Translations under genes and position numbers: made by a program | The notes under the pieces: generated by a model | Databases searched by the model: none | Told to the model about the DNA's origin: nothing | What the model saw: only the letters and a program-made list of their open reading frames with translations | Part shown: one piece after another, positions 28,908 through 62,571 of the stretch | How the letters are laid out: every line of letters starts with the position of its first letter | Position numbering within the stretch: the first letter of the stretch is position 1 | Assembly (NCBI GenBank): GCA_026390635.1 | Contig: JAPLFO010000139.1 | Location: 34,333 to 98,332 of the forward strand | Direction: 5' to 3' | Origin: Ignavibacteriales bacterium | GTDB taxonomy: Bacteria > Bacteroidota > Ignavibacteria > UBA10030 > UBA8401 | Length of the DNA: 64,000 nt

Positions 28908-28910
28908 GGC

Positions 28911-29336: not shown

Positions 29337-29359
29337 AGGGGATGTTTGATGCCGGGCGG

Positions 29360-29503: not shown

Positions 29504-29697
29504 CAAAAACTCCTGTGTTTCAAATAAAAAAGGGGTGCCGTCGGCAATCCTTTGCGTATGTCAAATGAAAATAGGAAAAAAAAAGACCATAAACAAGAGG
29601 CGTCGTCTCCCTTTTTTTGCATTTTTGTCTTGACAACCCTTCAATTTTTAATGTATTATTAGTGTTCGAGGTATGGTGTTCTGGAGTGTTGACAAAA

Positions 29698-29930
29698 TGT
29701 TGATAACCTTTCCCCATCCACACCCTGTTTTTGCCCTTGACTTTGTAGCCCGAAATTGAATCTTTTTGGGATGTGAATAACTGGTAAATAAGTCTATCGA
29801 TGTGTTATATGTCAATAAGTTAGCGCGGTTTATCTTATGTTATTAATTTTTTGATCGGTCTAAGTTATTAACTAACGCTTTTCCTCTTTGTTGATAAGTA
29901 TGTTGATAACTTTACGGGAACTGTGAATAA
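29698..29930. promoter_or_regulatory. DnaA-box cluster in the rpmH/dnaA divergent intergenic region (dnaA autoregulation and/or left part of a bipartite oriC)
   Basis: 9-mers matching TTATNCACA, all in the same orientation as read on the minus strand: tgttgataa at 29698, 29889 and 29901; tgtgaataa at 29772 and 29922; ccatccaca at 29715. An AT-rich tract lies at 29760-29880. Three boxes sit within 45 nt of the dnaA ATG. Confidence 0.55.
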
Positions 29931-29933
29931 CCT

Positions 29934-35700: not shown

Positions 35701-38298
35701 GATTGGGACGGCAGCACACGTCCTTCCGGGCAGGGACATCGATTGGTTGCTTCGGTCTTGATTGAAAATGTCACCCGGCAGTCTGCAATTCTTTCTCTTC
35801 TTTTGGCGTGCGAGCCGTCGTTGTCCATCGATCCGTCGCTCCGCACAGCGCTGGAGCACCTCCGCGAGCAGACGGTAAAATTTACGCGGCTCCTCAACAC
35901 GATCACACAACTGACGCATCAATTGGAGAAGCGATATCGCGGGATTCTTCCATTCAACGTTCGCGCAAGTGCTGCGCGGCGATTGGGTATGTCGCTGCAT
36001 CTTGCCCGCGATCCCGTGACGCTGCTGTGGCATCATAACGATCGTTTGGAACGGACAATGCTGGATCTTCGCCGCAAACGTCGCGAGATGCTGACATACT
36101 ATTTTGCGCTGAATAAAAAACTGCGGAAGGAGTTATTCAAACTTATACCCGCGATCCAGCGCAATATTCACGATCCGGCGATTGCACTGGAAGCAGGTAT
36201 GTATCGCGATTTGCTGCGGCGAATGGTTATTACGCCGCGCATCCACCAGAAAATGATTACAGCGCAGGATCAATTTGCAATCGATACAACGGTTCACAAT
36301 ATCAACGAGATCAACGAAATTGCCGGTCGTCATGGCAATCCCGGAATGGTGCTCGCGCTGCAGGTGAGCATGGCGGCAAAAGCGGAAGCACTGATTTCAC
36401 TCGACAGAAAAATGGGAGCTGCGCGCGAAACAATTTTGCGCGAACATCCGGATGCAGATCTGGCAGCGGTCCGGCTGGTGCCGTTGTTTGAGGATCTTGA
36501 TGCCGTAAGCGAGATTCCCCAATATCTGAATCGGGTCTGGGAGTATTGCCTGCAAAGCCGGCGGATGAATCAGGAACCGCGCGAACGTTTTGCGGAAATT
36601 GTGGGAGAAGTCTTTATTGCCGGATCGGACCTGAGCCAGCAAATCGGGCAAACAGCAGGATCGGCCGCATACCGACGTGCAAAAAAAGACCTTATCTTCT
36701 GGTTGGCCGAGCGCGGATTGACGGATGCCGTTCGCTTGAAGATGGGGAGCGGAGAACCGATGCAGAGGCAGGGCGGTTACTATGCAGAGTACTCCGGCGC
36801 GGCGGCATTTCTCCATACGCCCGAAATAGAGCAGCGACTCGTCAGCCAGCTTCATGCATCCACCCGAAAGAGTACGGAATACGCAACGACGCCGTTGATG
36901 GGCGTGTTTGCCGGAGGAGATCTCCGCACATTTCAATCCGCAATTTCGGAACAGCTTCGTTACCTTTCAACCTCCGATCTCTCGCGGCTGCTCCATCATA
37001 TTCGATCGACGCAGCAAACACACCGCAGCGATCTCGTTCGGGCCAGCGAATCATTTGCCGAGACGCGCCTGAAAGGAACGTCGCACGGAACACAGGAACT
37101 GGAGCGCCTCACCATCGGTACGCAGGAAAAGGCATTCGAAGAATTCCTGCCGTTGGTAACCAAGAATTTCCGCCAGATATTGTACGGAGCCGATGACGAT
37201 GTCGTCGGCATTCATCTGATCTCGTACTTCATCGCGAGATCGTCACCAATTCTACGAGATCGTCCGACCGTCCGTCCCAGCCGGACCATGTCCGCAGACC
37301 GCGGACAGAAGATCCTGGAACGCATTGCCGAAACGATTCCATCGTCGCGTTACGGAAGCATGCTGCGGGCGATTGCACATAACCAGGCCCAGACAACCGT
37401 GCTGGGTGTCAATCAATTGACCACCGGATTGTTTCGTGCGCTCGATACGGTTTCGCGGACGGAAACAGGAGAGCGTTCCGTCGAAGCGGCGGCGGTGGAA
37501 CGGATTCTTCCCCATCTTCCGGTCTACGAAATTCTGCAGACGCTCCGATTGTATCACGATCCCGCGCTTCACTATTTGCAGAGAATAGAACGCGCTTTTC
37601 CTGCGGGCAACTCTGCGTTTCTCGCGCTGCGTGAAGACAATGATGCCATGGCAGGATTTGTCGGCATCTTTCAAAAGGAGCTACTCCGGCGTCATGGTGT
37701 CGACGTTCCCGATTTTTTTGACGGTGATACATTTATTCCAGATCTCTTGCCGACACTTCGTCCCGATCTCGCGGTGCTGCTGCAGCCGGATCTCTTCAAC
37801 ACAAATGCCGAGATATTGCGGGAATCCATTCACGGACCTGTTCCATCCTCCTGGACGAAGTCGGTCGATGAACTGCTGGCCGCGCCCCGGAAGATTGCTG
37901 CATGGCGTGAAAACATCTGGCAGATACTGGAGCGGCCGGTATTTCAGCGCGTACAGAGTTTTGCCGAGCTTGCAATTTCGCTTCATTCACTCTCGCGGTC
38001 AACGGGCGCGCCGGAAACAGGCGGGAGCAAAAAGGGATTGAAGCTTTCTCCGGATCTTTCCCATTTCTTCCGTATTGCCCGATCAGACGACGACATGCGC
38101 CAGTTCCTTGCGGCCTCGCTGGAATATCTTTCGTCCATGTCCGGCGGCATGGTGGAGGTGCCCATCAGTATTGTGCGCGCGATGAAAGAAGTCGAGAGGA
38201 TTGCCAAAATTGAGGAGCAGGTGCTGTTGCCCAAAGAGCAGGATGTGCTGCGTTTCTATCTGCTGCAAATAGCCCGGCTCACCGGCGAGAACGGATAA
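32740..38298 (+). CDS. giant (1852 aa) multidomain protein: class I/II aminotransferase-like domain with a large insertion, fused to a full-length divergent phosphoenolpyruvate carboxylase-like domain
   Basis: The aminotransferase domain shows the N-terminal RVNFHIGNPVQDT (as in NLGIGEPDF), AIVLNNPHNATGKVF (NPxNPTG), IAVIDDLSYQN (Asp/Tyr), VHSLSKTDCLAGARLS (PLP Lys and Arg at +8) and a C-terminal small domain ending FRLTLGG at about residue 760. A roughly 420-aa insertion sits between the first and second motifs. The PEPC-like domain shows TVHPTQ at residue 900 (TAHPTE), VPLFEDLDAV at 1247 (VPLFETIEDL), IAGSDLSQQIGQTAGSAAYRRAKKDL at 1293 (GYSDSxKDAG…WAxYxAQ), LKMGSGEPMQRQGG at 1333 (FHGRGGSxGRGG, with His/Arg replaced) and a C-terminal …RLTGENG* (PEPC ends …RNTG). 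Spacing between these motifs matches E. coli Ppc. Confidence 0.65.
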   Translation: MTVSSFHLKPLKAAKVSEISEATASSAVAPADRVNFHIGNPVQDTRLTSAYLRMVLGVDINREELADSNVPQLLHFLGWKEKDEEVIAFYRTLIQRSSPYTPRGGFSRTAPHSLVKTFQQWLMNQQEPLVYDGGETSGRREMSLGSGGIAEALRVFFHMLTLCVEMRPVHVFVYGTSLPAPVMGFQELLVEYLPDDEKKALEFLEHALEENPFPSYVVLGRICREETRRMLRLLSMRHPLYFVEANDAPNHLSLSREAKLAQRVIRFLSAGIFSSRFSGLSTVFVAGPYEYLELFDTIHFQLKGTPSASEIELLSYAMTHDFSAVPSEHISSDVIIDAPYEGFGFGNDRALPQIAFRTEERLGRLVAGAGVKLKGLADSVYRRTETIGSHIGDLPFMQPFDSFSGREANKLLEDALRFIDSSEWHAELTQNFLVAFTKHHPEYRLKRCCAASGSSRTALSLIGFHCGISDVIVPDLSWTYEHCFPRVDAVPLTEAFDLDAEAMIAAAAEKLAVDPSWKKRGAIVLNNPHNATGKVFSDSAIRKLITWLLTNGIAVIDDLSYQNVAPREEWAEVPTLRQTADELVRGGMVTSAQTDRVITVHSLSKTDCLAGARLSVVELRDEHLFEKFKTINAGIPANSGAIFLTYLFYRNTRESVRAYWRLRNAIFLERSAALQAAAENLPAERNPCEISIIPPTGSMYPLLRVGKLPSGLSLDWLASGLARQGIGLVPLSAFARTEKGFETARRTFRLTLGGVDAADTLLKKTRRVLIDLNHLIAEEAGHYNRTEPRRSLLVRHSSGTDLWDSVELRVLENAKQLAESRRFLKGEKNSESLRGHFAERLSRFRQRFVDRHDTATALVQRAQESNGRTLSAVLEREFHKEPLAVREETFRQRLFDRTVHPTQMYSIRSEAAWDVLIHATLRGRNPSETLVQCAAEEMLREYYGMNVAINSGDESQELIIDLDAMIAAELSSELWFEPSRAFVSFWGDWDGSTRPSGQGHRLVASVLIENVTRQSAILSLLLACEPSLSIDPSLRTALEHLREQTVKFTRLLNTITQLTHQLEKRYRGILPFNVRASAARRLGMSLHLARDPVTLLWHHNDRLERTMLDLRRKRREMLTYYFALNKKLRKELFKLIPAIQRNIHDPAIALEAGMYRDLLRRMVITPRIHQKMITAQDQFAIDTTVHNINEINEIAGRHGNPGMVLALQVSMAAKAEALISLDRKMGAARETILREHPDADLAAVRLVPLFEDLDAVSEIPQYLNRVWEYCLQSRRMNQEPRERFAEIVGEVFIAGSDLSQQIGQTAGSAAYRRAKKDLIFWLAERGLTDAVRLKMGSGEPMQRQGGYYAEYSGAAAFLHTPEIEQRLVSQLHASTRKSTEYATTPLMGVFAGGDLRTFQSAISEQLRYLSTSDLSRLLHHIRSTQQTHRSDLVRASESFAETRLKGTSHGTQELERLTIGTQEKAFEEFLPLVTKNFRQILYGADDDVVGIHLISYFIARSSPILRDRPTVRPSRTMSADRGQKILERIAETIPSSRYGSMLRAIAHNQAQTTVLGVNQLTTGLFRALDTVSRTETGERSVEAAAVERILPHLPVYEILQTLRLYHDPALHYLQRIERAFPAGNSAFLALREDNDAMAGFVGIFQKELLRRHGVDVPDFFDGDTFIPDLLPTLRPDLAVLLQPDLFNTNAEILRESIHGPVPSSWTKSVDELLAAPRKIAAWRENIWQILERPVFQRVQSFAELAISLHSLSRSTGAPETGGSKKGLKLSPDLSHFFRIARSDDDMRQFLAASLEYLSSMSGGMVEVPISIVRAMKEVERIAKIEEQVLLPKEQDVLRFYLLQIARLTGENG

Positions 38299-46270: not shown

Positions 46271-48511
46271 TCAACGAAGCAGGATAAGTTTCTTTGTTGA
46301 CACGAAATTGTCTGCCGCGAGTCTGCAAAAGTAAACACCGCTCGCACAGCGGGATGCATTCCACCTCACCGAATATTTTCCCGCAGGTTTTTTCTCATCC
46401 ACCAGCACCGCCACTTCGCGACCGAGGAGATCGAATACTTTCACCATAATACATGATTGCCGAGGGATGTTGTATTCGATAGTTGTGCTTGGATTAAAAG
46501 GGTTTGGATAATTCTGGCACAAAGAAAATTCCTTGGGGAATCGTTCGGCGGCTACCGGAACGGGAGTAGCAATTGAATTCCTGTATGATATTTCGCGCGA
46601 CGTTCCGATGGACTTATCGGTGAATCGAATACTATAATAGAACGAAAGATTCCAGTTCACCGGAGGTGTTTTCAAGATACATGCCCATATGGTGTCATTT
46701 GCCGCACCGTCACCATGCAGTCCGTCGTTGAAGAACTGGGCGCTGTCTGCAACGACATCGCTTGTGGTGAATAATTTGCCGGTGAGAGCAAGATTATGAT
46801 TGAGAGGATTCCGAACGGTTACACTCAGAACGATGGTATCTCTCTGGCGGTAATTCATCTTGTCGGTGACAGGGGAAGATGCGTATGCCACTGCATTGAT
46901 CCATTCGACCGCCTGCTTCACCACGTCATCCTCGCCGCATACAGCGCCTTCCTGTGTCAGCCATACATCTTTGTCTACAGGAAAGCTTTTATGAATCAAA
47001 TATCCTTCATTATTATATGTGGTGAATATTGATCCATTATCAACCCGGTAGTAGTATGAACCAGCCCATCGTTTATCTCCGGTAAAATATGCAGTGTAAG
47101 CTCCATTCGTCCGCTTCCCAAAAAAACGAGCCATAGGATGAAACCGCATTCGAAACGCGTTATAGTCTCCTGAACTTCCGCAGTTTGGTCCGACAAGAAC
47201 CGCGATCGGCCGGTCAAAAATGAACGTGCCGGGAGTAAAATTCTCTGCTGCCCTTGGAGTAGTGATGGTAAACTCATTGTGCGCGCCGCCGGATATCCTC
47301 TTTGCCTGTGAATAATTCTTTGTCGGATCAAAATTGAATATCTGCTTGAATCCATCGTTGGCATATTCCGTGAGACCGCCTGCATTAGTTCGAAAATCCA
47401 GAACGAGGCCGGATAACCCAGGCGTCTGAAGCAGATCGGTCATTGCCTGACCAAAAAGGATTCTTGTTTGATTTGTAGATGCAGGAACACCCATCCAGTC
47501 CCATGCATAGATATATCCAATTTTAGTACCTTCAACAATTCCCGATGAGACGAATTTCTTCGCTGCAAAATTAGGGAACGGAACTCCTTTAACGGGAAGC
47601 TGTTCCGTCGCAACAAAATATGGAGGCGTGATACTTTTTAAGAGGGATGTTGGCAGATGGACGGTGTCTTTCGTCCAATACCTGAATATGTCGATGGTGT
47701 CAAAAAGCCCCCAGTTCATTCCCACGCTCATGGTTGAAACATGAAAGGCGACGTATGGTGTCGATCCAAGAAGACAAGCACCATAGCTGATCGGCAATTC
47801 GGCATCGAGAATCTCCTTCACGAGATCCTTCCAGGGAATTCCATCATACCCAAGAACGATGTCTCCTGGATGCAGACCGAGAGGATGATTAGGCATAACG
47901 CTGTACACCAGCGCAGTACTGTCAGGGAGAGCCGTCACACCGGCGCCAAAACAAGTCTGGAAAAAGCATGGATTCACACTGAAAATCGGTATGCCCGGTT
48001 TGTACACGTAGGAGGTGAATGGATATTCGGTGACAGTATAGTATTTAAACGTGCTGTCGATCCCAGTGTCGAGAGCATATGAATGCCATTCATTAAGCGC
48101 CCTGGACATGCGGGTCAGAATTCCATAAAAACGGCCGCGGCTCACGCCTGCTGCAACTTGCGGACGATAAACACTTTTCAAGGAATCCCAATTGACAGTA
48201 GTATTTGGAAATCCGCCCCAGGTTTGATCGAAAAGTGTCCAATAGAAGTCGAAGAAATTGAGCTTTTCCGCAGCGGAGATTCCCGAACCCCACGCTGAAT
48301 CAATGAGATTCCTCCAGTCTTTTACCGTGTAATGACCCAGCCGCTTCATCGCTGCAGGATTCTGGAATTGCCATGCAGTCTGTGCGGATGATGCAGCGGA
48401 ATTCGCCGCACCCCGTGATTGGAACAACTCACCAGAAACTTGTTGTTCTGTTTGACCAACGAGAGTGTGGCAAACAATCAAGACCGGAAGAAGCCAACAG
48501 GTCTGTTTCAT
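46271..48511 (-). CDS. T9SS-sorted S41-like serine peptidase (PDZ + C-terminal Por secretion domain)
   Basis: 746 aa with a signal peptide, a PDZ-like GLHPGDIVLGYDGIPWKDL, an S41-like IAVLVGPNCGSSGDYNAF, and a C-terminal …FNPSTTIEYNIPRQSCIMVKVFDLLGREVAVLVDEKKPAGKYSVRWNASRCASGVYFCRL… (T9SS CTD). Confidence 0.65.
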   Translation of the reverse strand: MKQTCWLLPVLIVCHTLVGQTEQQVSGELFQSRGAANSAASSAQTAWQFQNPAAMKRLGHYTVKDWRNLIDSAWGSGISAAEKLNFFDFYWTLFDQTWGGFPNTTVNWDSLKSVYRPQVAAGVSRGRFYGILTRMSRALNEWHSYALDTGIDSTFKYYTVTEYPFTSYVYKPGIPIFSVNPCFFQTCFGAGVTALPDSTALVYSVMPNHPLGLHPGDIVLGYDGIPWKDLVKEILDAELPISYGACLLGSTPYVAFHVSTMSVGMNWGLFDTIDIFRYWTKDTVHLPTSLLKSITPPYFVATEQLPVKGVPFPNFAAKKFVSSGIVEGTKIGYIYAWDWMGVPASTNQTRILFGQAMTDLLQTPGLSGLVLDFRTNAGGLTEYANDGFKQIFNFDPTKNYSQAKRISGGAHNEFTITTPRAAENFTPGTFIFDRPIAVLVGPNCGSSGDYNAFRMRFHPMARFFGKRTNGAYTAYFTGDKRWAGSYYYRVDNGSIFTTYNNEGYLIHKSFPVDKDVWLTQEGAVCGEDDVVKQAVEWINAVAYASSPVTDKMNYRQRDTIVLSVTVRNPLNHNLALTGKLFTTSDVVADSAQFFNDGLHGDGAANDTIWACILKTPPVNWNLSFYYSIRFTDKSIGTSREISYRNSIATPVPVAAERFPKEFSLCQNYPNPFNPSTTIEYNIPRQSCIMVKVFDLLGREVAVLVDEKKPAGKYSVRWNASRCASGVYFCRLAADNFVSTKKLILLR

Positions 48512-48556
48512 GCAACCTCCGAAAAATATATTAGTGGAAAAAAGACGGTCTTCGCC

Positions 48557-51121
48557 CTATTTCACCACCATACACTTTTTCGTTTCCGAAAATAATCTTT
48601 CCCCTCCCGCCGCGTCTAATCTGTAAAAGTAGATACCGCTGGATATTGCTGACGCGTCCCATGTCACCGAATATTTCCCCGCTGGTTTTTCCTCATTGAC
48701 CAACACCGCTACCTCGCGACCGAGGAGATCGAAAACCTGCAATCTAATAATTGCTGAATTTGGAATTGAAAATGCGATCGATGTTGACGGGTTAAATGGA
48801 TTAGGATGGTTCTGGTGCAGGAAATATTGTGCCGGCAGATTATTTTCTTGCACCACACTGTTCGTCGACGGTTGGACCAGCAACGAGACTGTGTCAATCC
48901 ACGCCGGATACTCTTCCGTCATGATATTCATCAGGAGTTGCACCCTAATATTGGGCGGACAGACAGGTTGGATTTTCAGTGCCCGGGGAACTTCTGCCAG
49001 TGCCTCTTTACCCGGAAGCAGATTGCCATAAATAAGCTGGTCCGTACCGCTGGTGATTGATACCATAGTATCCAACACAGCTATCGTTGCGGTCACATTT
49101 CTAACAGTATCTGTCTTTCCATTATTGATGAGTCGGAATTTAACACGAATCACGTCTCCCGGATTTGGAATTGTATCAGTCGATGTGTACGTCCACCCCT
49201 TCAAGTTCACCGGTCCATTGGTGAAGAACCGTTGTGCATTTTGAAGATGACGGTATGTTCCGGCCGTGATATCTGTAGTCCGCAGCGAAACTCCGTATGT
49301 ACTTTCTTTGGTTGGCGGTCCGATTCTTCCTCCATACACCTTATCGCCCGCGACCCCATCGTTGTGTAGACCATCATCAAGCAATTGGCAGCTGTCCACG
49401 AGTGCTCCTGCTCGATCAGAGAGATAGGACCAGACAGACACCGCATGCTTTTGCGGATTCTCGACCGTCGTCGTTACCCTGATCGTGTCTTGCGCTGGCT
49501 TCCCAAATTGTTTTGCGAGCGTCACGTCATGGCCATGCGTGAGCCCCGCAATCCACTCAAGGGCACGCTTGACTATCGTATCGTCTCCTTTCGCCACATC
49601 ATCCTTTGCAAACCACACTCTCTCATCGACGTCAAATCCTTTGTGAACCAGGTGTCCCTCGCCCGGATAGTTCGAGTAGGCTCCTTCTTTCGATACCCCA
49701 TAGTACCAAAGATTGTTTAGATAGTAGCCCTCCATGGAAGATAGGCCGTACGCGGTTGACGTCGGCTTTCCAAAGAACCGAACCATCGGATGACTTCTCA
49801 TAAAGAATGCTCCCCAATCACCGATACTCCCGCATTCAGGGCCAGTCAATACTGCGATCGGTCGATCGTAGAACTTCTGCTTCGGCGGCACACTGTAGCT
49901 CAAACGAGCGACCTTAAAGTCCATCTTGTCCGACGTGCTCGTTCTGGTCGCATCTGATAGCCACACCCACGGATCACTGTTAAACAGTCCACCAAGTTCC
50001 GACAGGAGTTTGGTGGAACCCCCTCCATTCACTCGAAAATCAATGATGAGACCATCGACTTTCTTGACATTTGTAAGTTCGTTGACGGCGGCGCTCACCA
50101 GCGAGGTGGTTGAGTACCAGTCCCGGATGTAGACATAACCCACATTCGTTCCTTCGACAATACCCCTCGTGCATTGCGGGCCTTGGTAGCGTTCGACGAT
50201 CGGAACGCCTTTCACAGGAAGCTGTTCAGCATAGCCAAAACTGTCCCAGTCTGTATTGTCCAACTTCCAGGTGGGAAGATGCACGGTATCACTGGTGGAA
50301 TACCTGATGACATCGAGAGAATCGAAGAGATACCAGTTGCACGCTGCTGATGTCAGAAGGTTGTGCGTCCAGCTTTCGGGCGAAGCGCCCCACATTGATA
50401 GTCCCCAATTGAGGGAAGCTACAGGAAGTTGAGCATCCAGGAGCTGCCGTATGAGTTGCTTCCAGGGAACGCGATCGTAACCAAGGACGATATCGCCCGC
50501 TTTCAGTCCCAACGGCTGGTGAGGGTCCACCTGGATCACAAGCAACGAACTGTCAGGCAGAGGGGTCATTGTCGCTCCCATGCCCCAGGCACACCAGCCG
50601 GAAATCCCGAGAATCGGCACTCCGCGCGGTCGATGGCTTGAGCCACGAAAACTCACGCTGTCAATACCCTGATCGATAATCAGCGTGTGCCCGTCGCGCA
50701 AAGCGAGAACCATATTCGACAAGATTCCGGCGAAACGGCCACGACTGACGCCTTGAGCTACTTCGGGGCGGAAAACGTTTTTCAGCGAGTCCCAGTTTAC
50801 ATCGAGGTTCGGGAAACCTCCGTAGTACATATTGACGTTGTTCCAGAAGCCGTCGAAGATCTGAAGCTTTTGGTCGGTTGGTAGTCCGGGGCCCCAAGTG
50901 GAATCGATGAGCCTCCGCCAATCATCCTTCGAATACTGCGACGCCTTCTTGCCAGAGATTCTGTATCGCGGGAAACTTTCCGATTGTGGTTGTGGCGGGG
51001 ACAAAGATAGCCTGACACGCCTGTGAGTAATATCGGGTGGTATTTCCTGTGCGCTTGCCGATAGCTCCATCAGCAAATAGAGCGCCCCGGCGCAAAGCAA
51101 GAATCCGAGTGCTGTTTTCAT
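48557..51121 (-). CDS. T9SS-sorted S41-like serine peptidase, tandem paralog of the upstream gene
   Basis: 854 aa. Long blocks match the neighbour (…NWDSLKNVFRPEVAQGVSRGRFAGIL…, IAVLTGPECGSIGDWGAF) and a T9SS CTD is present (…FNPSTSIAFSIPNSAIIRLQVFDLLGREVAVLVNEEKPAGKYSVTWDASAISSGIYFYRL…). Confidence 0.65.
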   Translation of the reverse strand: MKTALGFLLCAGALYLLMELSASAQEIPPDITHRRVRLSLSPPQPQSESFPRYRISGKKASQYSKDDWRRLIDSTWGPGLPTDQKLQIFDGFWNNVNMYYGGFPNLDVNWDSLKNVFRPEVAQGVSRGRFAGILSNMVLALRDGHTLIIDQGIDSVSFRGSSHRPRGVPILGISGWCAWGMGATMTPLPDSSLLVIQVDPHQPLGLKAGDIVLGYDRVPWKQLIRQLLDAQLPVASLNWGLSMWGASPESWTHNLLTSAACNWYLFDSLDVIRYSTSDTVHLPTWKLDNTDWDSFGYAEQLPVKGVPIVERYQGPQCTRGIVEGTNVGYVYIRDWYSTTSLVSAAVNELTNVKKVDGLIIDFRVNGGGSTKLLSELGGLFNSDPWVWLSDATRTSTSDKMDFKVARLSYSVPPKQKFYDRPIAVLTGPECGSIGDWGAFFMRSHPMVRFFGKPTSTAYGLSSMEGYYLNNLWYYGVSKEGAYSNYPGEGHLVHKGFDVDERVWFAKDDVAKGDDTIVKRALEWIAGLTHGHDVTLAKQFGKPAQDTIRVTTTVENPQKHAVSVWSYLSDRAGALVDSCQLLDDGLHNDGVAGDKVYGGRIGPPTKESTYGVSLRTTDITAGTYRHLQNAQRFFTNGPVNLKGWTYTSTDTIPNPGDVIRVKFRLINNGKTDTVRNVTATIAVLDTMVSITSGTDQLIYGNLLPGKEALAEVPRALKIQPVCPPNIRVQLLMNIMTEEYPAWIDTVSLLVQPSTNSVVQENNLPAQYFLHQNHPNPFNPSTSIAFSIPNSAIIRLQVFDLLGREVAVLVNEEKPAGKYSVTWDASAISSGIYFYRLDAAGGERLFSETKKCMVVK

Positions 51122-51749
51122 GCTAATCCTTCTTCTGATTGAACAGATCGGTCACTAGCTAAGTGATACTAAATAACAGTCGCGGACCGCTAGGCCATGA
51201 ACGTACCTCGAAGTGGCAGTTGGCGCGCAGCGAACGAGCTGACTCATGTCGACAATCCGCTTTCCGACCATGGATCACCATGATTAAAAGATATCCGACG
51301 GCACAAAAATAATAAAGCCCCCGCCGGCTTATCGCCAACAGAGGCTTCTAGGTATTAACGGTAGTGTTGCCAGCGCTTAGGAGTCCTCCGGTGAGGACAG
51401 CTGGGTCAATGTGTGTGTGCAAATCTATGGGAATTCGAGACAACTTTCAACCCCCGAGGCTTTCGCAGCACACAGTGTGAAGAATCACTCGCATTGGAGT
51501 AAGTCCTGAAAAACAGGCCATTTACTCCTTGATTTGCATACCGAAACAATGTCTAAGCAATTGTGGATATTTTCTCCTCACAAAACAACAATATCAGAGC
51601 GCCGTCCCCTAACGAGATATGGACGAAAATCTAGCTTTCGTATCAATCACATTAAGCTCACAATTGTCCAAAATAACTATCGCCGGACCTTCGAAAAATA
51701 TGGAAGCAAAACAAGGCGAACGAAGCGGCCGCACGGCCCCTCGACGCGG

Positions 51750-51846
51750 CATCGCTTCGCGATACCTTGCTCGGGGTGACGCAACACGTCATGGTGAGCG
51801 AGGGAGCCCCGTTGCACGGGGTAAACTCCGCGACCGAGTCGAACCA
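51750..51846. repeat. intergenic structured element, copy A, related to the element at 54257-54330
   Basis: …atcgcttcgcgataccttgctcggggtgacgcaacacgtcatggtgagcgagggagccccgttgcacggggtaaactccgcgaccgagtcgaacc…. Shares tcgcttcgc…tgacgcaa…gtca…catggtgagc…cggg…tcgaac blocks with copy B, and the hairpins differ by compensating changes. Confidence 0.4.
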
Positions 51847-52087
51847 TGCAGCAAAGTGAGCCGTCGTTTTGCCCATATTTTTCGTCAGTCTTGAATCTGG
51901 GTCATTTCGGTTTCAAGACAAAAGAAACGACGCTTCTGCATACTTTTAGAGAAAACAACAATAGACCCATGCTCAAATAGTAAGGCTAACTCTTATGACT
52001 CGCAAAGAATTCGTCATCTATGCGCAGGAGGCCCGTATTCCTTTCTTCCCAGATTATTCTGGACAGCAGTGCATTAAGTCCCTAAAC

Positions 52088-52150
52088 AAAAAAACAGCCG
52101 CAATGTCCCAGAGAGTGAATGAAGGATCTCTGTTGTCACTGCGGCTGTTT
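52088..52150 (-). terminator. candidate terminator hairpin downstream of the OPT transporter gene
   Basis: aacagccgca (52092-52101) pairs with tgcggctgtt (52140-52149) around a 38-nt loop holding an inner cagaga/tctctg hairpin. On the minus strand the stem is followed by TTTTTTGTTT. The atypically large loop lowers confidence. Confidence 0.35.
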
Positions 52151-52177
52151 ATATAACAGCTGATCAATCTTCGAACG

Positions 52178-54181
52178 TTATTCTTCCTTTGCGCGCATCG
52201 TATCCCACAACGTATACGCCGCGAGCAGAATGAACATCACAATAGCAACGAATTCACCCTGATGAGATTCTGCGAGTTCCGCATTGTACCAGGACGTATA
52301 TCCGAAGCGATATAACTGATCGTCGAAGAATCTCATAAATGCATTCAAAACACCGAACAATGCTCCGCCCGCGATAAAGCCGGACGCGATCAATGTACCG
52401 CGCGAGAAGCGTGCGTTGTTCAGCTTTTCATTTGTCGAACGGCTTGTGGCCCACCACGCAATTAATCCGCCGGCGACGAGCGGGAAATTTAATTCCTGCG
52501 GAATGTACATGCCGAGAGCAAATGCAAGCGGGGGAATCTTCACCGCAACGAGAATCAACGCGATCACCGCGCCGACAAGATAGAGAATCCAGGGAGCGCC
52601 CGTATTCGACATCAGCGGCTTGATAACGGCAGCCATGGCGTTGGCCTGCGGCGCGACCATCGCACCCTCGCCCTTGAATCCGAACGACTTATTGAGAATA
52701 AGAATCACAGCGGCAACTGTGGCGGCGGAGACGATCGTGCCGAGGAACTTCCATGCTTCCTGCTTCTTCGGCGTCGTGCCGAGCCAGTAGCCGATTTTCA
52801 GATCGGTGATAAATCCGCCGGCCATCGAAAGCGCCGTGCAGACAACGCCGCCGATGATCAGGGCGCTCATCATGCCGCTGTCACCGGTCAATCCGATTTG
52901 GGTAAGGATAAACGAAGAGAGAATCAACGTCATCAGCGTCATGCCGGACACGGGATTCGTTCCGACAATTGCCGTGGCATTGGCGGCCACGGTGGTGAAG
53001 AGAAAAGCGACAACAAGAACAATCAGCAAGCCGACAACGGCATGTGTGAAGTTGAAAACTACTCCGGCGTAAAAGAAGATGAAAATCATAAGCGCGGTCA
53101 GAAGAATCAGCAGGACGATATGCAGCATCTTCAAATCAGTCTGCCAGCGCACCTCAGATGAAGAGTCAGCGCTTTTTGACCGGAATATTTCGTGGTAGGC
53201 AAGACTGAATGCACCCGCAATAATTTTCGAAGAGCGCAGAATACCAATAATACCAGCCATTGCGATGCCGCCGATACCGATCTGCCGCACATACGCACGG
53301 AAAATTTCTTCTGCAGTCATAGCATTGATCAATTTCGTTGCCGTCGCGCCAAAGGGAGCCGTCAATCCAGCGCCAAGATTTGCCACCAGCGGCACAAGAA
53401 CAAACCAGGACAACGCGGAACCGGCGGCAATGATAACGGCGTACTTGACGCCGATGATGTAGCCAAGTCCGAAAATCATGGCGGAGACGTCGAAACGGAA
53501 TACCATTTTAACTTTCGTTGCGAGCAGATCGCCGAGCGGCACAACGCGTGATGTCACCACTTCCGACCACCATCCGAAAGCGCTGAAGACAAAATCAAAC
53601 AAGCCGCCGATGAGTCCGCTGACGACAAGCACGCCCGCCTGCTTGCCACCTTTTTCTCCGGCAATGAGAATTTCCGTCGTGGCCGTTGCTTCGGGGAATG
53701 GGAATTTGCCGTGCATGTCCTTCACAAAGAATTTTCTAAACGGAATCATGAAAAGAATTCCGAGAAAACCTCCGAACAGGGAAGACAGAAACATCTGATA
53801 GTATGTCGCAGGCAGATCGAGAATGTAGAGAGCGGGGATGGTGAAAATTGCGCCGGCGACAACAACACCGGAGCTCGCACCAATGGATTGAATAATGATG
53901 TTTTGCCCTAGGGCATTCGGACGTTTGAAGAGCGTTGAGAGACCGACGGCAAGAATGGCAATCGGAATGGCCGCCTCAAAGACCTGTCCGATCTTCAGTC
54001 CGGAATAGGCCGCCGCGGCAGAAAATAGGACTGCCATAACCAATCCCCAGCCGACAGACCACGGCGTCACTTCGGCAATCTGTGCCGTGGGATTCATGAC
54101 CGGCGTGTAGCTTTCTCCCTCCTTCAATTCTCTATAGGCATTGTCCGGGAGGCTGCTGTTGCCCGCGTTTTTTTGTTCCAT
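52178..54181 (-). CDS. OPT-family oligopeptide transporter
   Basis: 667 aa, about 16 TM segments, collinear with TIGR00733-type OPT transporters. Confidence 0.85.
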   Translation of the reverse strand: MEQKNAGNSSLPDNAYRELKEGESYTPVMNPTAQIAEVTPWSVGWGLVMAVLFSAAAAYSGLKIGQVFEAAIPIAILAVGLSTLFKRPNALGQNIIIQSIGASSGVVVAGAIFTIPALYILDLPATYYQMFLSSLFGGFLGILFMIPFRKFFVKDMHGKFPFPEATATTEILIAGEKGGKQAGVLVVSGLIGGLFDFVFSAFGWWSEVVTSRVVPLGDLLATKVKMVFRFDVSAMIFGLGYIIGVKYAVIIAAGSALSWFVLVPLVANLGAGLTAPFGATATKLINAMTAEEIFRAYVRQIGIGGIAMAGIIGILRSSKIIAGAFSLAYHEIFRSKSADSSSEVRWQTDLKMLHIVLLILLTALMIFIFFYAGVVFNFTHAVVGLLIVLVVAFLFTTVAANATAIVGTNPVSGMTLMTLILSSFILTQIGLTGDSGMMSALIIGGVVCTALSMAGGFITDLKIGYWLGTTPKKQEAWKFLGTIVSAATVAAVILILNKSFGFKGEGAMVAPQANAMAAVIKPLMSNTGAPWILYLVGAVIALILVAVKIPPLAFALGMYIPQELNFPLVAGGLIAWWATSRSTNEKLNNARFSRGTLIASGFIAGGALFGVLNAFMRFFDDQLYRFGYTSWYNAELAESHQGEFVAIVMFILLAAYTLWDTMRAKEE

Positions 54182-54256
54182 GCAAAGGGTTCCTTTTTAG
54201 TTGTGTAACAACTACCTGCGAGTTAAAACGACAAAGCTTTGCCACAGGGTCCCCCG

Positions 54257-54330
54257 ACTCGCTTCGCTCGCTTGGGATGACGCAAGAGTCACACTCCATG
54301 GTGAGCCAGCCCAACGGGACGATTCGAACT
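54257..54330. repeat. intergenic structured element, copy B, related to the element at 51750-51846
   Basis: …gactcgcttcgctcgcttgggatgacgcaagagtcacactccatggtgagccagcccaacgggacgattcgaact…. Same orientation as copy A. Lies 75-150 nt upstream of the OPT start, on the opposite strand. Confidence 0.4.
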
Positions 54331-54413
54331 AAGCTCTGTGAGCTCTGTGTTCTTCCGAATGATGCCTGCGGCATCATTCGAGATCCTCTGGACTGTGGCC
54401 ATTTTTCTCTTCA

Positions 54414-54818
54414 CTACGTACGATCTTCGGGCGGCCTGTTCAGCGACGAGTGATCGATCACAACCATCGAACATTGTTCGCATCGCCACGCTGCGTTGAA
54501 CTTCATTGAAATACCATGATTGAGTGTGTTGGGCAGCACGGCTTTCAGCCAGGCAAGGCTCATGCGTCCGGGGATTTTTTTATCACCGTCACACCACGCA
54601 ATTCCGCGCTCGGCAGCGGTGAATCCACTCCGCATGAGCACGCGGCATTTCGGACACAGTACTGGCTGCATTGCATGTGCGGGCGATGTTATGTGCGATG
54701 GACGGTGTGACTGCTGCTGTGTGTGTGCCCGCTGACGAAGGAGAACGATCAGTATCAGCCACACGACGGCAGTCAGGACGATGACAGCGATGGCTACTGG
54801 AATAACGATCATAGACAC
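54414..54818 (-). CDS. small membrane-anchored protein with Cys4 zinc-ribbon-like motif
   Basis: 134 aa with an N-terminal TM helix, then CPKC…(39 aa)…C-x2-C. It overlaps the pepT stop by 10 nt, so the two are probably co-transcribed. Confidence 0.45.
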   Translation of the reverse strand: MSMIVIPVAIAVIVLTAVVWLILIVLLRQRAHTQQQSHRPSHITSPAHAMQPVLCPKCRVLMRSGFTAAERGIAWCDGDKKIPGRMSLAWLKAVLPNTLNHGISMKFNAAWRCEQCSMVVIDHSSLNRPPEDRT

Positions 54819-56062
54819 TTCTCCACCCAGATTTGGGCAAGATGGACAACGGTCTCAACAGATCTTTCCATTCCGAAAAGGGAGACCCATTCGTTCTTGC
54901 TGTGATAATTATTGCCGCCGGTGAAAATATTGGGCGTCGGCAATCCGGCTGCCGTCAAGCGTGAGCCATCGGTGCCGCCCCGGATGGGCCGCCACTCCGG
55001 CTTCAATCCGGTGCGCCGTGTTGCTTCTTCAAGAGCATCGAGTCCGCGGGGATCTTTTTCCAACCCTTCGCGCATATTGCGGTACGATTCGATGATTTCA
55101 AGTTCAATCACCGCCTTCGGATACAGCGGCTGAACTTCAGCAATCACTTTTCGAACAATGCCGTCCAGCGTCTGCAGTCCAGCGGTCTCAAAATCGCGGA
55201 AGAGGAGCTTCACAACCGCTTTGGAGATCGATGCGTCAATTGTATAGGGATGGATATAGGGCTCGTAGCCTTCTGTTGTTTCGGGCGCCATGTTTTTCGG
55301 CAGGCGTGCTATCAGATCCGACATGACGCGAATAGCGTTGATCATGATGTTCTTAGCGGATCCTGGATGTATATCACGGCCGCGAATCGTAATAACCGCC
55401 GTATTTGCGCTGAAGGTTTCCTTATTCAGTTCGCCCGGTGTATCGCCGTCCACGGTGTACGCATACGCGGTATTGAATTTTTTTATGTCGAAATATTTTG
55501 TTCCTGCACCCACCTCTTCATCCGGCGTGAAAGCAATCCTGATATCGCCGTGGAGATAAGAAGGATTCTTCAGCAGCACATCCACAGCAGTCATGATGAT
55601 GGCGATGCCGGCCTTGTCGTCGGCGCCGAGCAGCGTTGTGCCATCGGTCGTGATGATCGTTTTGCCGATGTTGTGCTCTAATTCTTTATTCTCATTCATG
55701 CGGATGACGACGGAGGGATCGCCGGGAAGAACGATATCGCCGCCTTGATACGGCGCGATGATGTTCGGCTTAACGTTTGCGCCGGAAACTTCGGGCGACG
55801 TATCGACGTGAGCGAGAAAGCCGATTGCAGGCGCTTTGCCGTATGCCGGATGTGACGGTGGAATGTTGGACGGCAGCGTCGCGGTGACGTAGCCGTACTG
55901 ATCGATCTCAACGCGCTGAAGATTCAGCGCCTGTAGTTCCTGTTGCAGCAAATGAAGAAGATCGAACTGCTTGGATGTGCTGGGATAGGTTTCCGAGTTC
56001 TCATCGGACTGCGTGTCGATCTGCACGTAGCGAAGAAATCGGGAAAGAACCGTGTCATTCAT
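54809..56062 (-). CDS. pepT: peptidase T (tripeptide aminopeptidase, M20B)
   Basis: 417 aa collinear with PepT (…GFLAHVDTSPE…, …GADDKAGIAIIM…, …GGTDGS…). Confidence 0.9.
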   Translation of the reverse strand: MNDTVLSRFLRYVQIDTQSDENSETYPSTSKQFDLLHLLQQELQALNLQRVEIDQYGYVTATLPSNIPPSHPAYGKAPAIGFLAHVDTSPEVSGANVKPNIIAPYQGGDIVLPGDPSVVIRMNENKELEHNIGKTIITTDGTTLLGADDKAGIAIIMTAVDVLLKNPSYLHGDIRIAFTPDEEVGAGTKYFDIKKFNTAYAYTVDGDTPGELNKETFSANTAVITIRGRDIHPGSAKNIMINAIRVMSDLIARLPKNMAPETTEGYEPYIHPYTIDASISKAVVKLLFRDFETAGLQTLDGIVRKVIAEVQPLYPKAVIELEIIESYRNMREGLEKDPRGLDALEEATRRTGLKPEWRPIRGGTDGSRLTAAGLPTPNIFTGGNNYHSKNEWVSLFGMERSVETVVHLAQIWVEKCL

Positions 56063-61336: not shown

Positions 61337-61437
61337 CACTCCACGAGTGCAGCGGTCATTCGTTAAACCTCCCTTCCAGCTTCTTGTCAAATGTCAGTGA
61401 AGCAGCACGACTGAGTAGACAAAAAGAAGAGAGCCGT

Positions 61438-61788
61438 ATGAAGAAGAAAGTGTTTGCAATCGCAGCGTGCCTGTTGCTGTTGTGCACAACATCAGCAATG
61501 GCGCAAATCCATATCGGCGTTGGAATTCGCGTCGGACCGCCGCCGCCGGTGCGAGAGGTTATCGTCGATGGTCCATTTCGAAACGCAGTATGGATTCCGG
61601 GATTCTATCGATGGCATATGCATCGCCATGAGTACGCATGGGTGCCGGGACATTGGGCGCGAGCATCGCGGCCGGGTGCTGTTTGGATTCCGGAACGATG
61701 GGAACGGCGGCGAGGGGAGTGGGTATGTTTTGAAGGACGCTGGAAAGAGGAACGCCCTGCCGGGCGCGAACGACGTCGTGGTAATTAG
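61438..61788 (+). CDS. small secreted Trp/Pro/Gly-repeat protein
   Basis: Starts MKKKVFAIAACLLLLCTTSAMA (signal peptide). This is followed by repeats of W-[IV]-PG-x-[WY] spaced about 12 aa apart, and an Arg/Glu-rich tail. Confidence 0.45.
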   Translation: MKKKVFAIAACLLLLCTTSAMAQIHIGVGIRVGPPPPVREVIVDGPFRNAVWIPGFYRWHMHRHEYAWVPGHWARASRPGAVWIPERWERRRGEWVCFEGRWKEERPAGRERRRGN

Positions 61789-61819
61789 AATTCGCGACAT
61801 CTGAAAAACTCTTGGCGCC

Positions 61820-61923
61820 GTCATTCTGAGTCGTCCGCCTACGGCGGGATAAACTTCGCGACGAAGAATCCATCACTTTGGTCTAATTTTAGCGCATGGA
61901 TTCTTCGCTTCGCTCAGAATGAC
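61820..61923. repeat. 104-nt near-perfect inverted repeat (long hairpin) between convergent genes
   Basis: Outer arms gtcattctgag/ctcagaatgac (11/11) and inner arms cgaagaatccat/atggattcttcg (12/12), with a side hairpin ccgcc-tac-ggcgg and a loop ttttagcgc. Confidence 0.5.
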
Positions 61924-61989
61924 CCACCGACAAGACTTTTTCAGAAGTGTCAATTCATTCGATTCGCGGAAACGCGGAGGGCATCTTTA

Positions 61990-62571
61990 TTACAAGACGT
62001 CTTTGGAAATCCACTTCTGGGTTTTGGGCGCGACGTACCGTTCCATCCTGTCCAGCAGCCGCTCACTATCATCATCCACAAGAAGCATGTCCTGATTTGC
62101 CGTCTTTAAAAAGCTGCGATCAACCATCGTCTGCACCATCATACAAAGAGCGTCGTAATAACCGGCGATATTGAGCAATCCGATTGGTTTGGCATGAAGT
62201 CCGAGTTGTGCCCAGGTCAGCATCTCAAAAAGTTCATCCAGCGTTCCGAACCCACCGGGAAGCGCAATCACGCCGTCGCACAAATTGTTCATGGTGGTTT
62301 TTCGCTCGTGCATCGTGTTGACAACAATGAGTTCTGTAATGCCTGGATGAGCGATTTCCTTGTCCCGGAGGAAAACCGGAAGAACGCCGATCGACTTACC
62401 GTCCCCTGAAAGAACTCCATCTGCCACCGCCCCCATCAAACCAATCCTTGTTCCGCCGTAGACCAGCGTAATGCCGCGCCGTGCCAGTGTCGTTCCGAGC
62501 AACCGGGCTTGCGTAGCGTAGAGAGGATCCAGTCCCGAACTGGAGCCGCAAAAGACTGTAATGCTTTTCAT
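61990..62571 (-). CDS. LOG-family cytokinin riboside 5-prime-monophosphate phosphoribohydrolase
   Basis: 193 aa with a TIGR00730-type PGGxGTxxE motif (…LPGGFGTLDELFE…). Confidence 0.85.
   Translation of the reverse strand: MKSITVFCGSSSGLDPLYATQARLLGTTLARRGITLVYGGTRIGLMGAVADGVLSGDGKSIGVLPVFLRDKEIAHPGITELIVVNTMHERKTTMNNLCDGVIALPGGFGTLDELFEMLTWAQLGLHAKPIGLLNIAGYYDALCMMVQTMVDRSFLKTANQDMLLVDDDSERLLDRMERYVAPKTQKWISKDVL

What the first reader, a model, noticed from the sequence alone, without database searches (positions are those of the whole stretch)
51750..54330. Two related ~80-nt structured elements flank the OPT transporter gene in direct orientation
Copy A (51750-51846) and copy B (54257-54330) share ordered blocks: tcgcttcgc, tgacgcaaNa-gtca, catggtgagcSag, ccc…cggg, tcgaac. 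The differences preserve hairpin potential (tgacg/cgtca against tgac/gtca), which is the signature of a conserved RNA structure or a small repeat family.

Both copies lie on the plus strand, while all flanking genes are on the minus strand. The reverse complement of B lies inside the OPT 5-prime leader.

They could be a cis-regulatory RNA family, REP/MITE-like elements, or relics of att-type direct repeats bracketing the OPT gene.
Basis: seen in the sequence. Interest (0 to 1): 0.5.

Follow-up and report, generated by a model that had tools for sequence, protein, structure and literature searches.

The report
Decayed REP-like palindromic repeat dimers
The two look-alike stretches on either side of the peptide-transporter gene are worn copies of a short hairpin-forming repeat that is scattered between genes in many bacteria, so they are ordinary intergenic repeats and not a switch for that gene or scars of its insertion.

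Summary
The shared blocks are real and lie at the stated coordinates. Taken alone, the A/B similarity is only marginal (nhmmer E about 0.05).

Both copies match two profiles built from unrelated sequences. In the whole window that combination occurs only at A and B, and in 0 of 300 shuffles.

Each copy is a head-to-head dimer of a REP-type hairpin unit. The unit is a (C/T)GTC tag, a 4-bp covarying stem, and the invariant core TGAG...CGAA, which gives tandem G.A pairs and often the GCGAAGC mini-hairpin. In A and B the unit loops carry insertions. B no longer folds better than shuffled sequence.

A third, intact dimer lies at 61819-61924. The same subfamily occurs at other loci in a related Ignavibacteria-like contig. 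The wider family occurs in 67 IMG/VR contigs and on cyanobacterial plasmids. It has no Rfam model.

The geometry fits the CGTC-tagged REP superfamily of Di Nocera et al. 2013.

OPT sits next to the M20 peptidase gene in relatives that lack the repeats, and the closest relative lacks B. The window holds no integrase or transposase. That argues against att scars and against a cis-regulatory RNA.

Verdict: a degenerate member of a known kind, of low interest.

The parts
51736..51850 (.). Copy A: head-to-head dimer of two degenerate REP-type units. The two CGTC tags face each other across the 5-nt spacer 51782-51786.
   Evidence: Direct reading. X- and Y-profile hits at 51752-51780 and 51786-51799. 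DNA fold z=-2.4 on the + strand.
51736..51781 (-). A unit 1, read on the minus strand: CGTC-ACCC(C)-GAGCAAG-[ATCGCGAAGCGAT hairpin]-GCGTCGA-GGGG.
   Evidence: Aligns with B unit 1 and with L143:4117-4158.
51787..51850 (+). A unit 2: CGTC-ATGG-TGAGC-GAG-[insert]-GAG-TCGAA-CCAT-GCA.
   Evidence: Found by the grammar scan (tag4 + stem4 + TGAG...CGAA + reverse complement of the stem). Aligned with the other units.
51803..51835 (+). Hairpin-bearing insertion inside the loop of A unit 2 (CCCCG-TTGCA-CGGGG, then TAAACTCCGCGACC).
   Evidence: predicted hairpin. A homologous stretch lies in the left unit of copy C (GGCGGGATAAACTTCGCGAC).
51851..51872 (+). Degenerate third unit: GCAAAG-TGAGCCGTCG-TTTTGC, followed by a T-run.
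   Evidence: Flagged as terminator-like. Its loop carries the family core TGAGC..GTCG (direct reading).
54249..54332 (.). Copy B: head-to-head dimer of the same two unit types, more decayed than A.
   Evidence: X profile E=0.021 at 54259-54281 and Y profile at 54294-54307. It folds no better than shuffles. It is absent from the orthologous spacer of L004.
54249..54282 (-). B unit 1, read on the minus strand: CGTC-ATCC(C)-AAGCGAGCGAAGCGAG-TCGG-GGGAC.
   Evidence: Shares AAGCGAGCGAAGCGAG with L143:4117-4158. Relative to the canonical TCGCTTCGCTCGGGATGAC it has a 4-nt insertion.
54294..54332 (+). B unit 2: CTCC-ATGG-TGAGC-CAG-[CCCAACGGGAC]-GAT-TCGAA-CTAA. The 3' stem strand is mutated.
   Evidence: Same TGAGCCAG..TCGAA core as L024. 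Same CCCAAnGGGAC insert as L143:4055-4114.
54332..54349 (+). Tandem AGCTCTGTG x2. Together with the inverted CCACAGGG at 54242-54249 it brackets B.
   Evidence: TRF. The same CACAGAG-type arrays lie next to repeats in L026 and L004.
61819..61924 (.). It lies between the convergent genes at 61384-61788(+) and 61990-62571(-).
   Evidence: X profile E=7.9e-6. It folds as one long hairpin, z=-5.0 and -6.9. Gene context.
61819..61872 (+). C left unit: CGTC-ATTC-TGAG-[insert with CCGCC-TAC-GGCGG]-CGAA-GAAT-CCA.
61897..61924 (-). C right unit, canonical: GGTC-ATTC-TGAGCGAAGCGAA-GAAT-CCA.

Best explanation
A and B are non-coding, decayed copies of a dispersed REP-type palindromic repeat.

The basic unit is a small hairpin with these parts:
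- an unpaired (C/T)GTC tag;
- a 4-bp stem that covaries between copies;
- an invariant T-A pair;
- the core TGAG(C)-loop-(K)CGAA, which gives tandem G.A/A.G mismatches closed by G-C.

In one flavour the core is the very stable GCGAAGC mini-hairpin.

Units occur as inverted dimers. A and B are both head-to-head heterodimers. The minus-strand unit has the GCGAAGC-type core. The plus-strand unit has the TGAGC..GTCGAA-type core. Extra small hairpins are inserted in the loops.

Shown here:
- family membership;
- unit covariation;
- presence/absence differences between close relatives;
- positions in spacers downstream of gene 3' ends;
- absence of coding potential;
- absence of mobility genes nearby.

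Inferred, not shown:
- Like other REPs, they fold in single-stranded DNA or in read-through RNA. At most they act as generic 3'-end hairpins that protect mRNA or punctuate transcription.
- They spread or are lost through a trans-acting enzyme encoded elsewhere, or through recombination.
- They have no specific link to the OPT gene. Flanking OPT with the same polarity is coincidence (two copies, p=0.5).
For: - Two strings recalled before any search occur far above chance in IMG/VR. GGTGAGCCTGTCGAACCAC is in 21 contigs. TCGCTTCGCTCRGGRTGACR is in 46 contigs. The chance expectation is about 0.2 and 0.4, calibrated from the 38 purely chance hits of a 17-base gapped pattern.
- Profiles built only from those foreign copies co-hit only at A and B in the window, and in 0 of 300 shuffles.
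- The same X profile finds a third, intact dimer at 61898-61923 (E=7.9e-6).
- Of 100 distinct units, 55 have 4/4 Watson-Crick stem pairs and 26 have 3/4. None has 4/4 in the shifted control.
- The count of structure pairs gives 82.7% of cells paired against 68.3% shuffled, and 105 double-change cells against 43 (0 of 500 shuffles). Slid controls give 27-52%.
- A grammar scan finds exactly A unit 2 and the two C units. Shuffles give a mean of 0.4.
- Units of the same subfamily, with the same inserts (AAGCGAGCGAAGCGAG and CCCAAnGGGAC), lie at other loci of a related contig, L143.
- B is missing from the closest relative, L004.
- The 91-aa ORF over A has no homologue among 5.8 billion proteins.
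- Rfam finds nothing in the window or in 24 loci that hold canonical copies.
- All three window copies lie in unidirectional or convergent spacers. That is the distribution described for REPs (PMC3733652).
Against: - A and B fit the unit model only after allowing insertions of 11-38 nt in the loops.
- The X profile alone gives A only E=1.
- B does not fold better than shuffles, so it may be an inert relic.
- Copy number in the source genome is unknown. Only 64 kb is available, with 3 loci, and the genome is not in the genome-contig collection.
- My crude ORF-context count over the family was uninformative, because mechanical ORFs covered half the units.
- No function has been tested.
Confidence: 0.85

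Rival explanations
1. A and B are two paralogous small-RNA genes on the plus strand. They are antisense to or independent of the flanking genes, and each ends at its own terminator.
For: Terminator-like hairpins follow both copies on the + strand, at 51851-51872 and 54332-54344. The G.U pairs in the A hairpin favour the + strand.
Against: - No promoter-like site lies upstream of either copy on the + strand.
- The '51851 terminator' is itself a degenerate repeat unit, and the '54332 terminator' is the tandem CTCTGTG motif.
- The elements are not conserved at orthologous loci.
- The family occurs in either orientation and in both dimer arrangements.
- There is no Rfam match.
Confidence: 0.05
2. 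The elements are a cis-regulatory leader (riboswitch or attenuator) shared by the peptide-utilisation genes OPT and the S41 peptidase, read on the minus strand.
For: On the minus strand, B lies 68-151 nt upstream of the OPT start and A lies about 615-730 nt upstream of the S41 peptidase start.
Against: - OPT orthologues at 78-90% identity have short spacers without the element.
- B on the minus strand folds no better than shuffles (z=0.1 as RNA, 0.0 as DNA).
- A minus-strand terminator-like hairpin at 51314-51348 lies between A and the S41 gene.
- Copy C and the foreign copies have unrelated neighbours.
Confidence: 0.03
3. A and B are direct-repeat scars (attL/attR-like) of an insertion that brought in OPT.
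For: The copies have the same polarity and bracket a single gene.
Against: - M20-OPT adjacency is ancestral. It is seen in L005, L006, L143 and the P0023 contig.
- L004 has DUF6487-OPT without B.
- The longest exact shared block is 11 nt.
- There is no integrase, transposase or tRNA gene in the window.
- GC content across OPT is not distinct from its surroundings.
Confidence: 0.02
4. The resemblance is chance similarity between two unrelated intergenic stretches, or between fragments of one degraded gene.
For: The pairwise statistics are marginal. Roughly one such pair is expected among the intergenic stretches of a 64-kb window.
Against: The independent-profile co-occurrence test gives 0 of 300 shuffles. 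The two copies share subfamily inserts with L143. The ORF over A has no protein homologue, and the blocks change reading frame between A and B (direct reading).
Confidence: 0.03

Closest known systems
CGTC-tagged REP superfamily (Di Nocera, De Gregorio & Rocco 2013, BMC Genomics 14:522; PMC3733652)
   Same: - It has an unpaired CGTC tag, with TGTC and CCTC as variants. A unit 1, A unit 2, B unit 1 and C left carry CGTC. Among 100 family units, 41 carry TGTC and 7 carry CCTC.
- Its stems start A-T, T-A.
- The overall geometry is 8-9 stem positions plus a 3-5-nt loop.
- Both units of copy C have a CCA tail.
- Inverted dimers, including heterodimers, are common.
- It is reported in Chlorobi and Bacteroidetes.
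- It lies between unidirectional or convergent ORFs.
- It has no adjacent transposase.
   Different: - The core here has tandem G.A mismatches (TGAG/CGAA) rather than a fully Watson-Crick 8-9-bp stem.
- Peptides listed for CGTC-1 to CGTC-4 (VIPAKAGI, VIAGLDPAI, VIPWLDHGI, RHSELVSGS) correspond to other sequences. This family is apparently not one of the four described.
- Most family tails are CTC or CCC, not CCA.
- A and B have loop insertions.
Neisseria dRS3 / NIME mosaic repeats. The paper calls dRS3 'CGTC-1'. The NIME organisation is from my own knowledge.
   Same: GTCATTCC...GGAATC-type short inverted repeats. They are combined with other small repeat modules into intergenic mosaics.
   Different: The loop and stem sequences differ and the phylum differs. 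The link of dRS3 to phage integration has not been examined here.
Classical REP/BIME and REPIN elements mobilised by RAYT transposases (GTAG-tagged)
   Same: Short extragenic palindromes, organised as dimers, lying downstream of genes. Proposed roles are in mRNA stability and termination.
   Different: There is no GTAG tag and no RAYT gene in the window or next to the copies examined. The trans-acting enzyme, if any, is unknown.
Mini-hairpin DNA d(GCGAAGC) (Hirao and co-workers; review PMC13037366)
   Same: The GCGAAGC heptamer forms the tip of the flavour-2 unit. It is present in A unit 1, B unit 1 and C right (for the motif).
   Different: That literature concerns ssDNA origins and applications, not dispersed genomic repeats. 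The flavour-1 units (TGAGCCTGTCGAA) lack the heptamer.
Cyanobacterial STRR heptamer tandem repeats (Mazel et al. 1990; from my own knowledge)
   Same: Short tandem arrays with a period of about 7-9 nt (CTCTGTG here; CATTATT, CTGACCA and CAGATTA in other loci) adjoin the palindromes.
   Different: In the window there is only a 2-copy array. The relationship to STRR is a resemblance, not tested.

Membership tests
CGTC-tagged REP superfamily | Unpaired tetranucleotide tag CGTC (variants TGTC, CCTC) at one end of the hairpin | tested here: met
   CGTC at 51778-51781 (minus strand), 51787-51790, 54279-54282 (minus strand) and 61819-61822. B unit 2 has CTCC and C right has GGTC. Among 100 family units the tags are TGTC 41, CCTC 7, GTTC 7 and CGTC 2.
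CGTC-tagged REP superfamily | Stem of 8-9 bp whose first two pairs are A-T and T-A | tested here: inconclusive
   AT-first stems (ATCC, ATTC, ATGC, ATGG) dominate. The 8-9 positions include two G.A mismatches. The flavour-1 units start with GT or GC.
CGTC-tagged REP superfamily | Loop of 4-5 nt | tested here: not met
   Canonical units have loops of 3-5 nt. All four units of A and B carry loop insertions of 11-38 nt.
CGTC-tagged REP superfamily | Short unpaired 3' tail, consensus CCA | tested here: inconclusive
   Both units of C have CCA and A unit 2 has GCA. Family tails are mostly CTC, CCC or GAG.
CGTC-tagged REP superfamily | Frequent inverted dimers (head-to-head predominant, heterodimers common) | tested here: met
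   A and B are head-to-head heterodimers. C and L143:4055-4158 are tail-to-tail.
REP elements in general | Many dispersed copies in one genome | tested here: inconclusive
   There are 3 loci in 64 kb and 3 units in 22 kb of the relative L143.
REP elements in general | Extragenic, mostly between unidirectional or convergent genes near 3' ends | tested here: met
   A lies between OPT and S41 (unidirectional). B lies between DUF6487 and OPT (unidirectional). C lies between convergent genes. The family-wide count was uninformative.
REP elements in general | Hairpin supported by compensatory changes among copies | tested here: met
   (105 double-change cells against 43; 0 of 500 shuffles).
RAYT-mobilised REP/REPIN | GTAG tag and a flanked RAYT (Y1 transposase) gene | tested here: not met
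   No GTAG tag. No Y1_Tnp or other transposase among 50 window ORFs.
Any curated structured RNA (Rfam 15) | Match to a covariance model | tested here: not met
   (window). (24 loci with canonical copies; only tRNAs were found).
att sites of an integrated element | Identical direct repeats bounding a segment that is absent from relatives, plus an integrase | tested here: not met
MITE | Terminal inverted repeats with a target-site duplication and a related autonomous IS | tested here: inconclusive
   Inverted arms are present. No clear duplication is seen at the B/L004 boundary. No IS is known.

The most novel reading that the evidence does not exclude
The hairpin unit (covarying stem, invariant TGAG...CGAA core with tandem G.A, GCGAAGC mini-hairpin tip) keeps the same core in an Ignavibacteriales MAG, in cyanobacterial plasmids and in dozens of IMG/VR contigs, yet it has no Rfam model and I found no paper quoting its sequence. 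It could be the recognition hairpin of an as yet unidentified, broadly distributed single-strand DNA (or RNA) processing enzyme. That would be the 'missing transposase' of CGTC-type REPs. One lead is the small GIY-YIG nuclease gene that arrays of the repeat flank on both sides on a Planktothrix plasmid. A and B would then be eroded products of that activity.
Probability: 0.15. Interest if true: 0.55.

Novelty: new member of a known kind. Interest (0 to 1): 0.22.

Why it matters
For this window it mainly matters as a negative result. OPT needs no special regulatory or mobility story. Gene callers should not annotate the 72-91-aa ORFs over copy A. More broadly, the unit described here (tag, covarying stem, G.A-containing invariant core) gives a simple grammar for masking a repeat that produces spurious ORFs and breaks assemblies in many environmental genomes. 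The mobilising or binding factor of this repeat is still unknown.

Tried and rejected
- tRNA, tmRNA or tRNA-like 3' end. The reverse complement contains GGTTCGA...CACCA, but ARAGORN finds nothing and no T-arm pairing exists.
- Hammerhead or other small ribozymes, group II intron domain V and integron attC. I compared these consensus sequences by eye and none fits. Rfam is negative.
- Coding relic. The two 6-nt indels keep the reading frame in the core, but the distal blocks change frame, and the 91-aa ORF has no homologue.
- Genome-contig scan with TGACGCAAN{4,14}CATGGTGAGCSAG. It gave 7 hits, all inside CDS of unrelated taxa, which equals the chance expectation. The source genome is not in that collection.
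- The same core pattern in IMG/VR gave 38 hits, all chance. I used this as a calibration.
- Literature searches for the repeat as DNA, RNA or peptide strings found only primers.
- GIY-YIG association. It is seen on one Planktothrix plasmid, but there is no GIY-YIG homologue in the other 1.3 Mb of fetched loci.
- Gene-context census of 89 units with mechanical ORFs. It was too noisy to use.
- A Pfam census of ORFs next to the units was prepared but not run, because most of those ORFs were spurious.
Full report
**Setting.**
The window comes from an Ignavibacteriales MAG. The OPT protein is 100% identical to an NCBI entry of that name. The window covers the core chromosome around dnaA, yidC, mnmE, mnmG, rsmG, lon and dnaX.

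Around the finding, all genes are on the minus strand:
- S41 peptidase with a T9SS tail, 48557-51121
- OPT, 52178-54181
- a DUF6487 protein, 54414-54818
- M20 peptidase, 54809-56062

Copy A lies in a 1056-nt gene-free spacer, 51122-52177. It is about 330 nt past the OPT stop and beyond the OPT intrinsic terminator (read directly at about 52092-52152). Copy B lies in the 232-nt spacer between DUF6487 and OPT.

**Checking the observation.**
The pairwise evidence is modest:
- The local score is 30, against 15.2 +/- 2.3 for random pairs. One of 2973 random pairs reaches it.
- nhmmer gives E=0.041 and E=0.059 as reciprocal best hits.
- Given a free choice among intergenic stretches, this alone is about what chance would supply.
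- No further copy with the same spacer motif exists in the window.
- Rfam and ARAGORN find nothing.

**Outside evidence.**
A scan of 185,579 representative genomes with the A/B core pattern returned only 7 chance hits inside genes. The metagenome scan returned 23 hits. Two of them (L024, L026) also carried the distal TCGAAC block and other shared features.

L024 showed the canonical form: CCCTTCGACAAACTCAGGGTGAC...GTCATGGTGAGCCAGTCGAACCAC. I recognised this as a widespread intergenic repeat that I had seen as spurious peptides.

I tested that recollection with two strings fixed in advance:
- GGTGAGCCTGTCGAACCAC occurs in 21 IMG/VR contigs.
- TCGCTTCGCTCRGGRTGACR occurs in 46 IMG/VR contigs.

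The expectation by chance is about 0.2 and 0.4. I calibrated this on a 17-base gapped pattern whose 38 hits all lacked family features.

A blastn search of plasmids finds the unit repeatedly on Planktothrix and Gloeothece plasmids. None of 24 loci holding canonical copies matches any Rfam family.

**The unit.**
I collected every occurrence of TGAGC-NNN-KCGAA in the fetched DNA, which gave 100 distinct units.
- The four bases on either side are fully complementary in 55 units and 3/4 complementary in 26. No unit is fully complementary in a shifted control.
- Many stem types occur: ATCC/GGAT, ATTC/GAAT, ATGC/GCAT, ACCC/GGGT, GTGG/CCAC, GTCC/GGAC, GCCC/GGGC and GCAC/GTGC.
- The formal count gives 82.7% of cells paired against 68.3% shuffled, and 105 double-change cells against 43 (0 of 500 shuffles). 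Slid controls give 27-52%.

The unit is therefore a tag, a covarying stem, a T-A pair, tandem G.A/A.G, a G-C pair and a short loop. The tag is TGTC in 41 units, CCTC in 7, and sometimes CGTC or GGTC. In the commonest flavour the tip is GCGAAGC, the 'mini-hairpin DNA' of Hirao and co-workers.

**A and B in this light.**
Profiles of the 5' module (X, 41 foreign copies) and of the 3' module (Y, 23 foreign copies) were run on the window. X gives 61898-61923 (E=7.9e-6), then B (E=0.021), and A only at E=1 because of a 10-nt insertion. Y hits both A and B weakly.

An X hit followed within 60 nt by a Y hit on the same strand occurs only at A and B, and never in 300 shuffled windows.

Read unit by unit, A (51736-51850) is a head-to-head dimer:
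- The minus-strand unit is CGTC-ACCCC-GAGCAAG-[ATCGCGAAGCGAT]-GCGTCGA-GGGG.
- A 5-nt spacer follows.
- The plus-strand unit is CGTC-ATGG-TGAGC-GAG-[33-nt insert with a CCCCG/CGGGG hairpin]-GAG-TCGAA-CCAT.

B (54249-54332) has the same two unit types and the same polarity:
- CGTC-ATCCC-AAGCGAGCGAAGCGAG-TCGG-GGGAC on the minus strand
- CTCC-ATGG-TGAGC-CAG-[CCCAACGGGAC]-GAT-TCGAA-CTAA on the plus strand

- tcgcttcgc is the complement of the GCGAAGC tip.
- tgacg...cgtca is the two tags facing each other.
- catggtgagcSag is the tag, stem and core of the second unit.
- ccc...cggg is a loop insert.
- tcgaac is the end of the core plus the stem.

A grammar scan that allows loop inserts recovers exactly A unit 2 and the two units of the third copy.

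Folding statistics:
- C is a strong long hairpin (z -5.0 and -6.9).
- A(+) is moderate (z -2.4).
- B is indistinguishable from shuffles.

**Relatives.**
M20-OPT adjacency with a 67-105-nt spacer is conserved in L005, L006, L143/L144 and the P0023 contig. L142 (81% OPT identity) has a 175-nt spacer without the repeat.

L004 (90% OPT identity) has DUF6487 followed by a 93-nt spacer. That spacer keeps only a CTCTGTG...TGGCAAAAAG motif and lacks B.

L143 carries three units of the same subfamily elsewhere, at 4055-4114(+), 4117-4158(-) and 8300-8349(+). They include the AAGCGAGCGAAGCGAG loop of B unit 1 and the CCCAAnGGGAC insert of B unit 2.

So the subfamily is dispersed in this lineage, and individual insertions differ between relatives.

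**Comparison with what is known.**
Di Nocera et al. 2013 define a CGTC-tagged REP superfamily with these features:
- tag CGTC, TGTC or CCTC
- stems of 8-9 bp that begin A-T, T-A
- loops of 4-5 nt
- a CCA tail
- mostly head-to-head dimers, often heterodimers
- presence in Proteobacteria, Chlorobi, Bacteroidetes, Spirochaetes and Thermotogae
- no dedicated transposase
- location between unidirectional or convergent ORFs

The elements here share the tag, the AT-first stems, the dimer organisation, the CCA tail in copy C and the genomic placement.

They differ in the G.A-containing core. Their sequence does not correspond to the peptides listed for families CGTC-1 to CGTC-4. I therefore file them as REP-type repeats of the CGTC-tagged kind, probably an uncatalogued family. 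I could not see the paper's consensus figure.

**Mechanism.**
Shown: hairpin units with covariation, inverted dimers, nested loop inserts, gain or loss between relatives, extragenic placement after 3' ends, and no coding signal.

Inferred from what is established for REPs: folding in single-stranded nucleic acid, generic effects on mRNA 3' ends or termination, and spread by an enzyme encoded elsewhere.

Nothing ties them to OPT specifically.

**Verdict.**
The finding is real but ordinary.

Noticed in passing
window 61819-61924: A third, intact dimer of the same repeat lies between convergent genes (a WXXGXW-repeat ORF and a LOG/lysine-decarboxylase-like gene). It folds as one long hairpin (z -5 to -7).
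   Followed up: yes
window 51122-52177: This is an unusually long (1056 nt) gene-free spacer. Besides copy A it holds a minus-strand terminator-like hairpin with a T-run at 51314-51348 and a 32-nt palindrome at 51889-51920. It has no Rfam hit and no conserved ORF, so an unannotated small RNA or a long leader of the S41 peptidase gene is possible.
   Followed up: partly
window 54332-54349 and 54242-54249; L026 8170-8210; L004 745-775: CACAGAG/CTCTGTG heptamer-type short tandem arrays sit next to the palindromic units. In the window they bracket B as an inverted pair. Other loci show analogous arrays (CATTATT, CTGACCA, CAGATTA, CACGGAA). They resemble cyanobacterial STRR repeats, but their origin is unexplained.
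   Followed up: partly
window 54358-54382: A perfect 11-bp hairpin (CGAATGATGCC-TGC-GGCATCATTCG) lies 32 nt after the DUF6487 stop codon, with no T-run on either strand. It may be a U-tract-less terminator.
   Followed up: no
L145 (Planktothrix agardhii plasmid NZ_LR882964.1) 3940-4800 and 2400-2690: A 94-aa GIY-YIG nuclease gene is flanked on both sides by arrays of the same repeat unit (TGTCATTCTGAGTGAAACGAAGAATC and its inverse, with tandem partial copies). Copies also lie inside an annotated 1560-aa MmeI-type CDS. No GIY-YIG homologue was found in the other 1.3 Mb of fetched loci.
   Followed up: partly
L100 3990-4130, 5390-5590, 7560-7690: A phage-like IMG/VR contig carries the full inverted-pair element three times between co-directional genes. 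Each is followed by tandem GGATGACAACG subrepeats and a CATTATT array.
   Followed up: partly
L001-L003 (Logan contigs of the identical OPT gene): Independent assemblies from at least three runs all end at about window 51898 and 54373. Both ends lie in or next to palindromes. This suggests that these hairpins or repeats break de Bruijn-graph assembly, or that strains vary there.
   Followed up: no
window 12071-14738: Two M16 peptidase genes each appear split into two adjacent ORFs (12071-12469 and 12485-12862; 13108-14214 and 14211-14738). They are frameshifts, pseudogenes or assembly errors.
   Followed up: no
window 32740-38298: A 1852-aa ORF whose only Pfam match is a class I/II aminotransferase domain (residues 424-754). 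Most of the protein is unassigned.
   Followed up: no
window 46271-51121: Two tandem paralogous S41 peptidase genes with T9SS sorting tails. They share a 99-nt stretch at 81% identity (46353-46451 and 48651-48749).
   Followed up: no
window 28672-29933: The spacer between yidC and dnaA (1.26 kb, with one unassigned 161-aa ORF) is the likely oriC neighbourhood. DnaA boxes were not searched.
   Followed up: no
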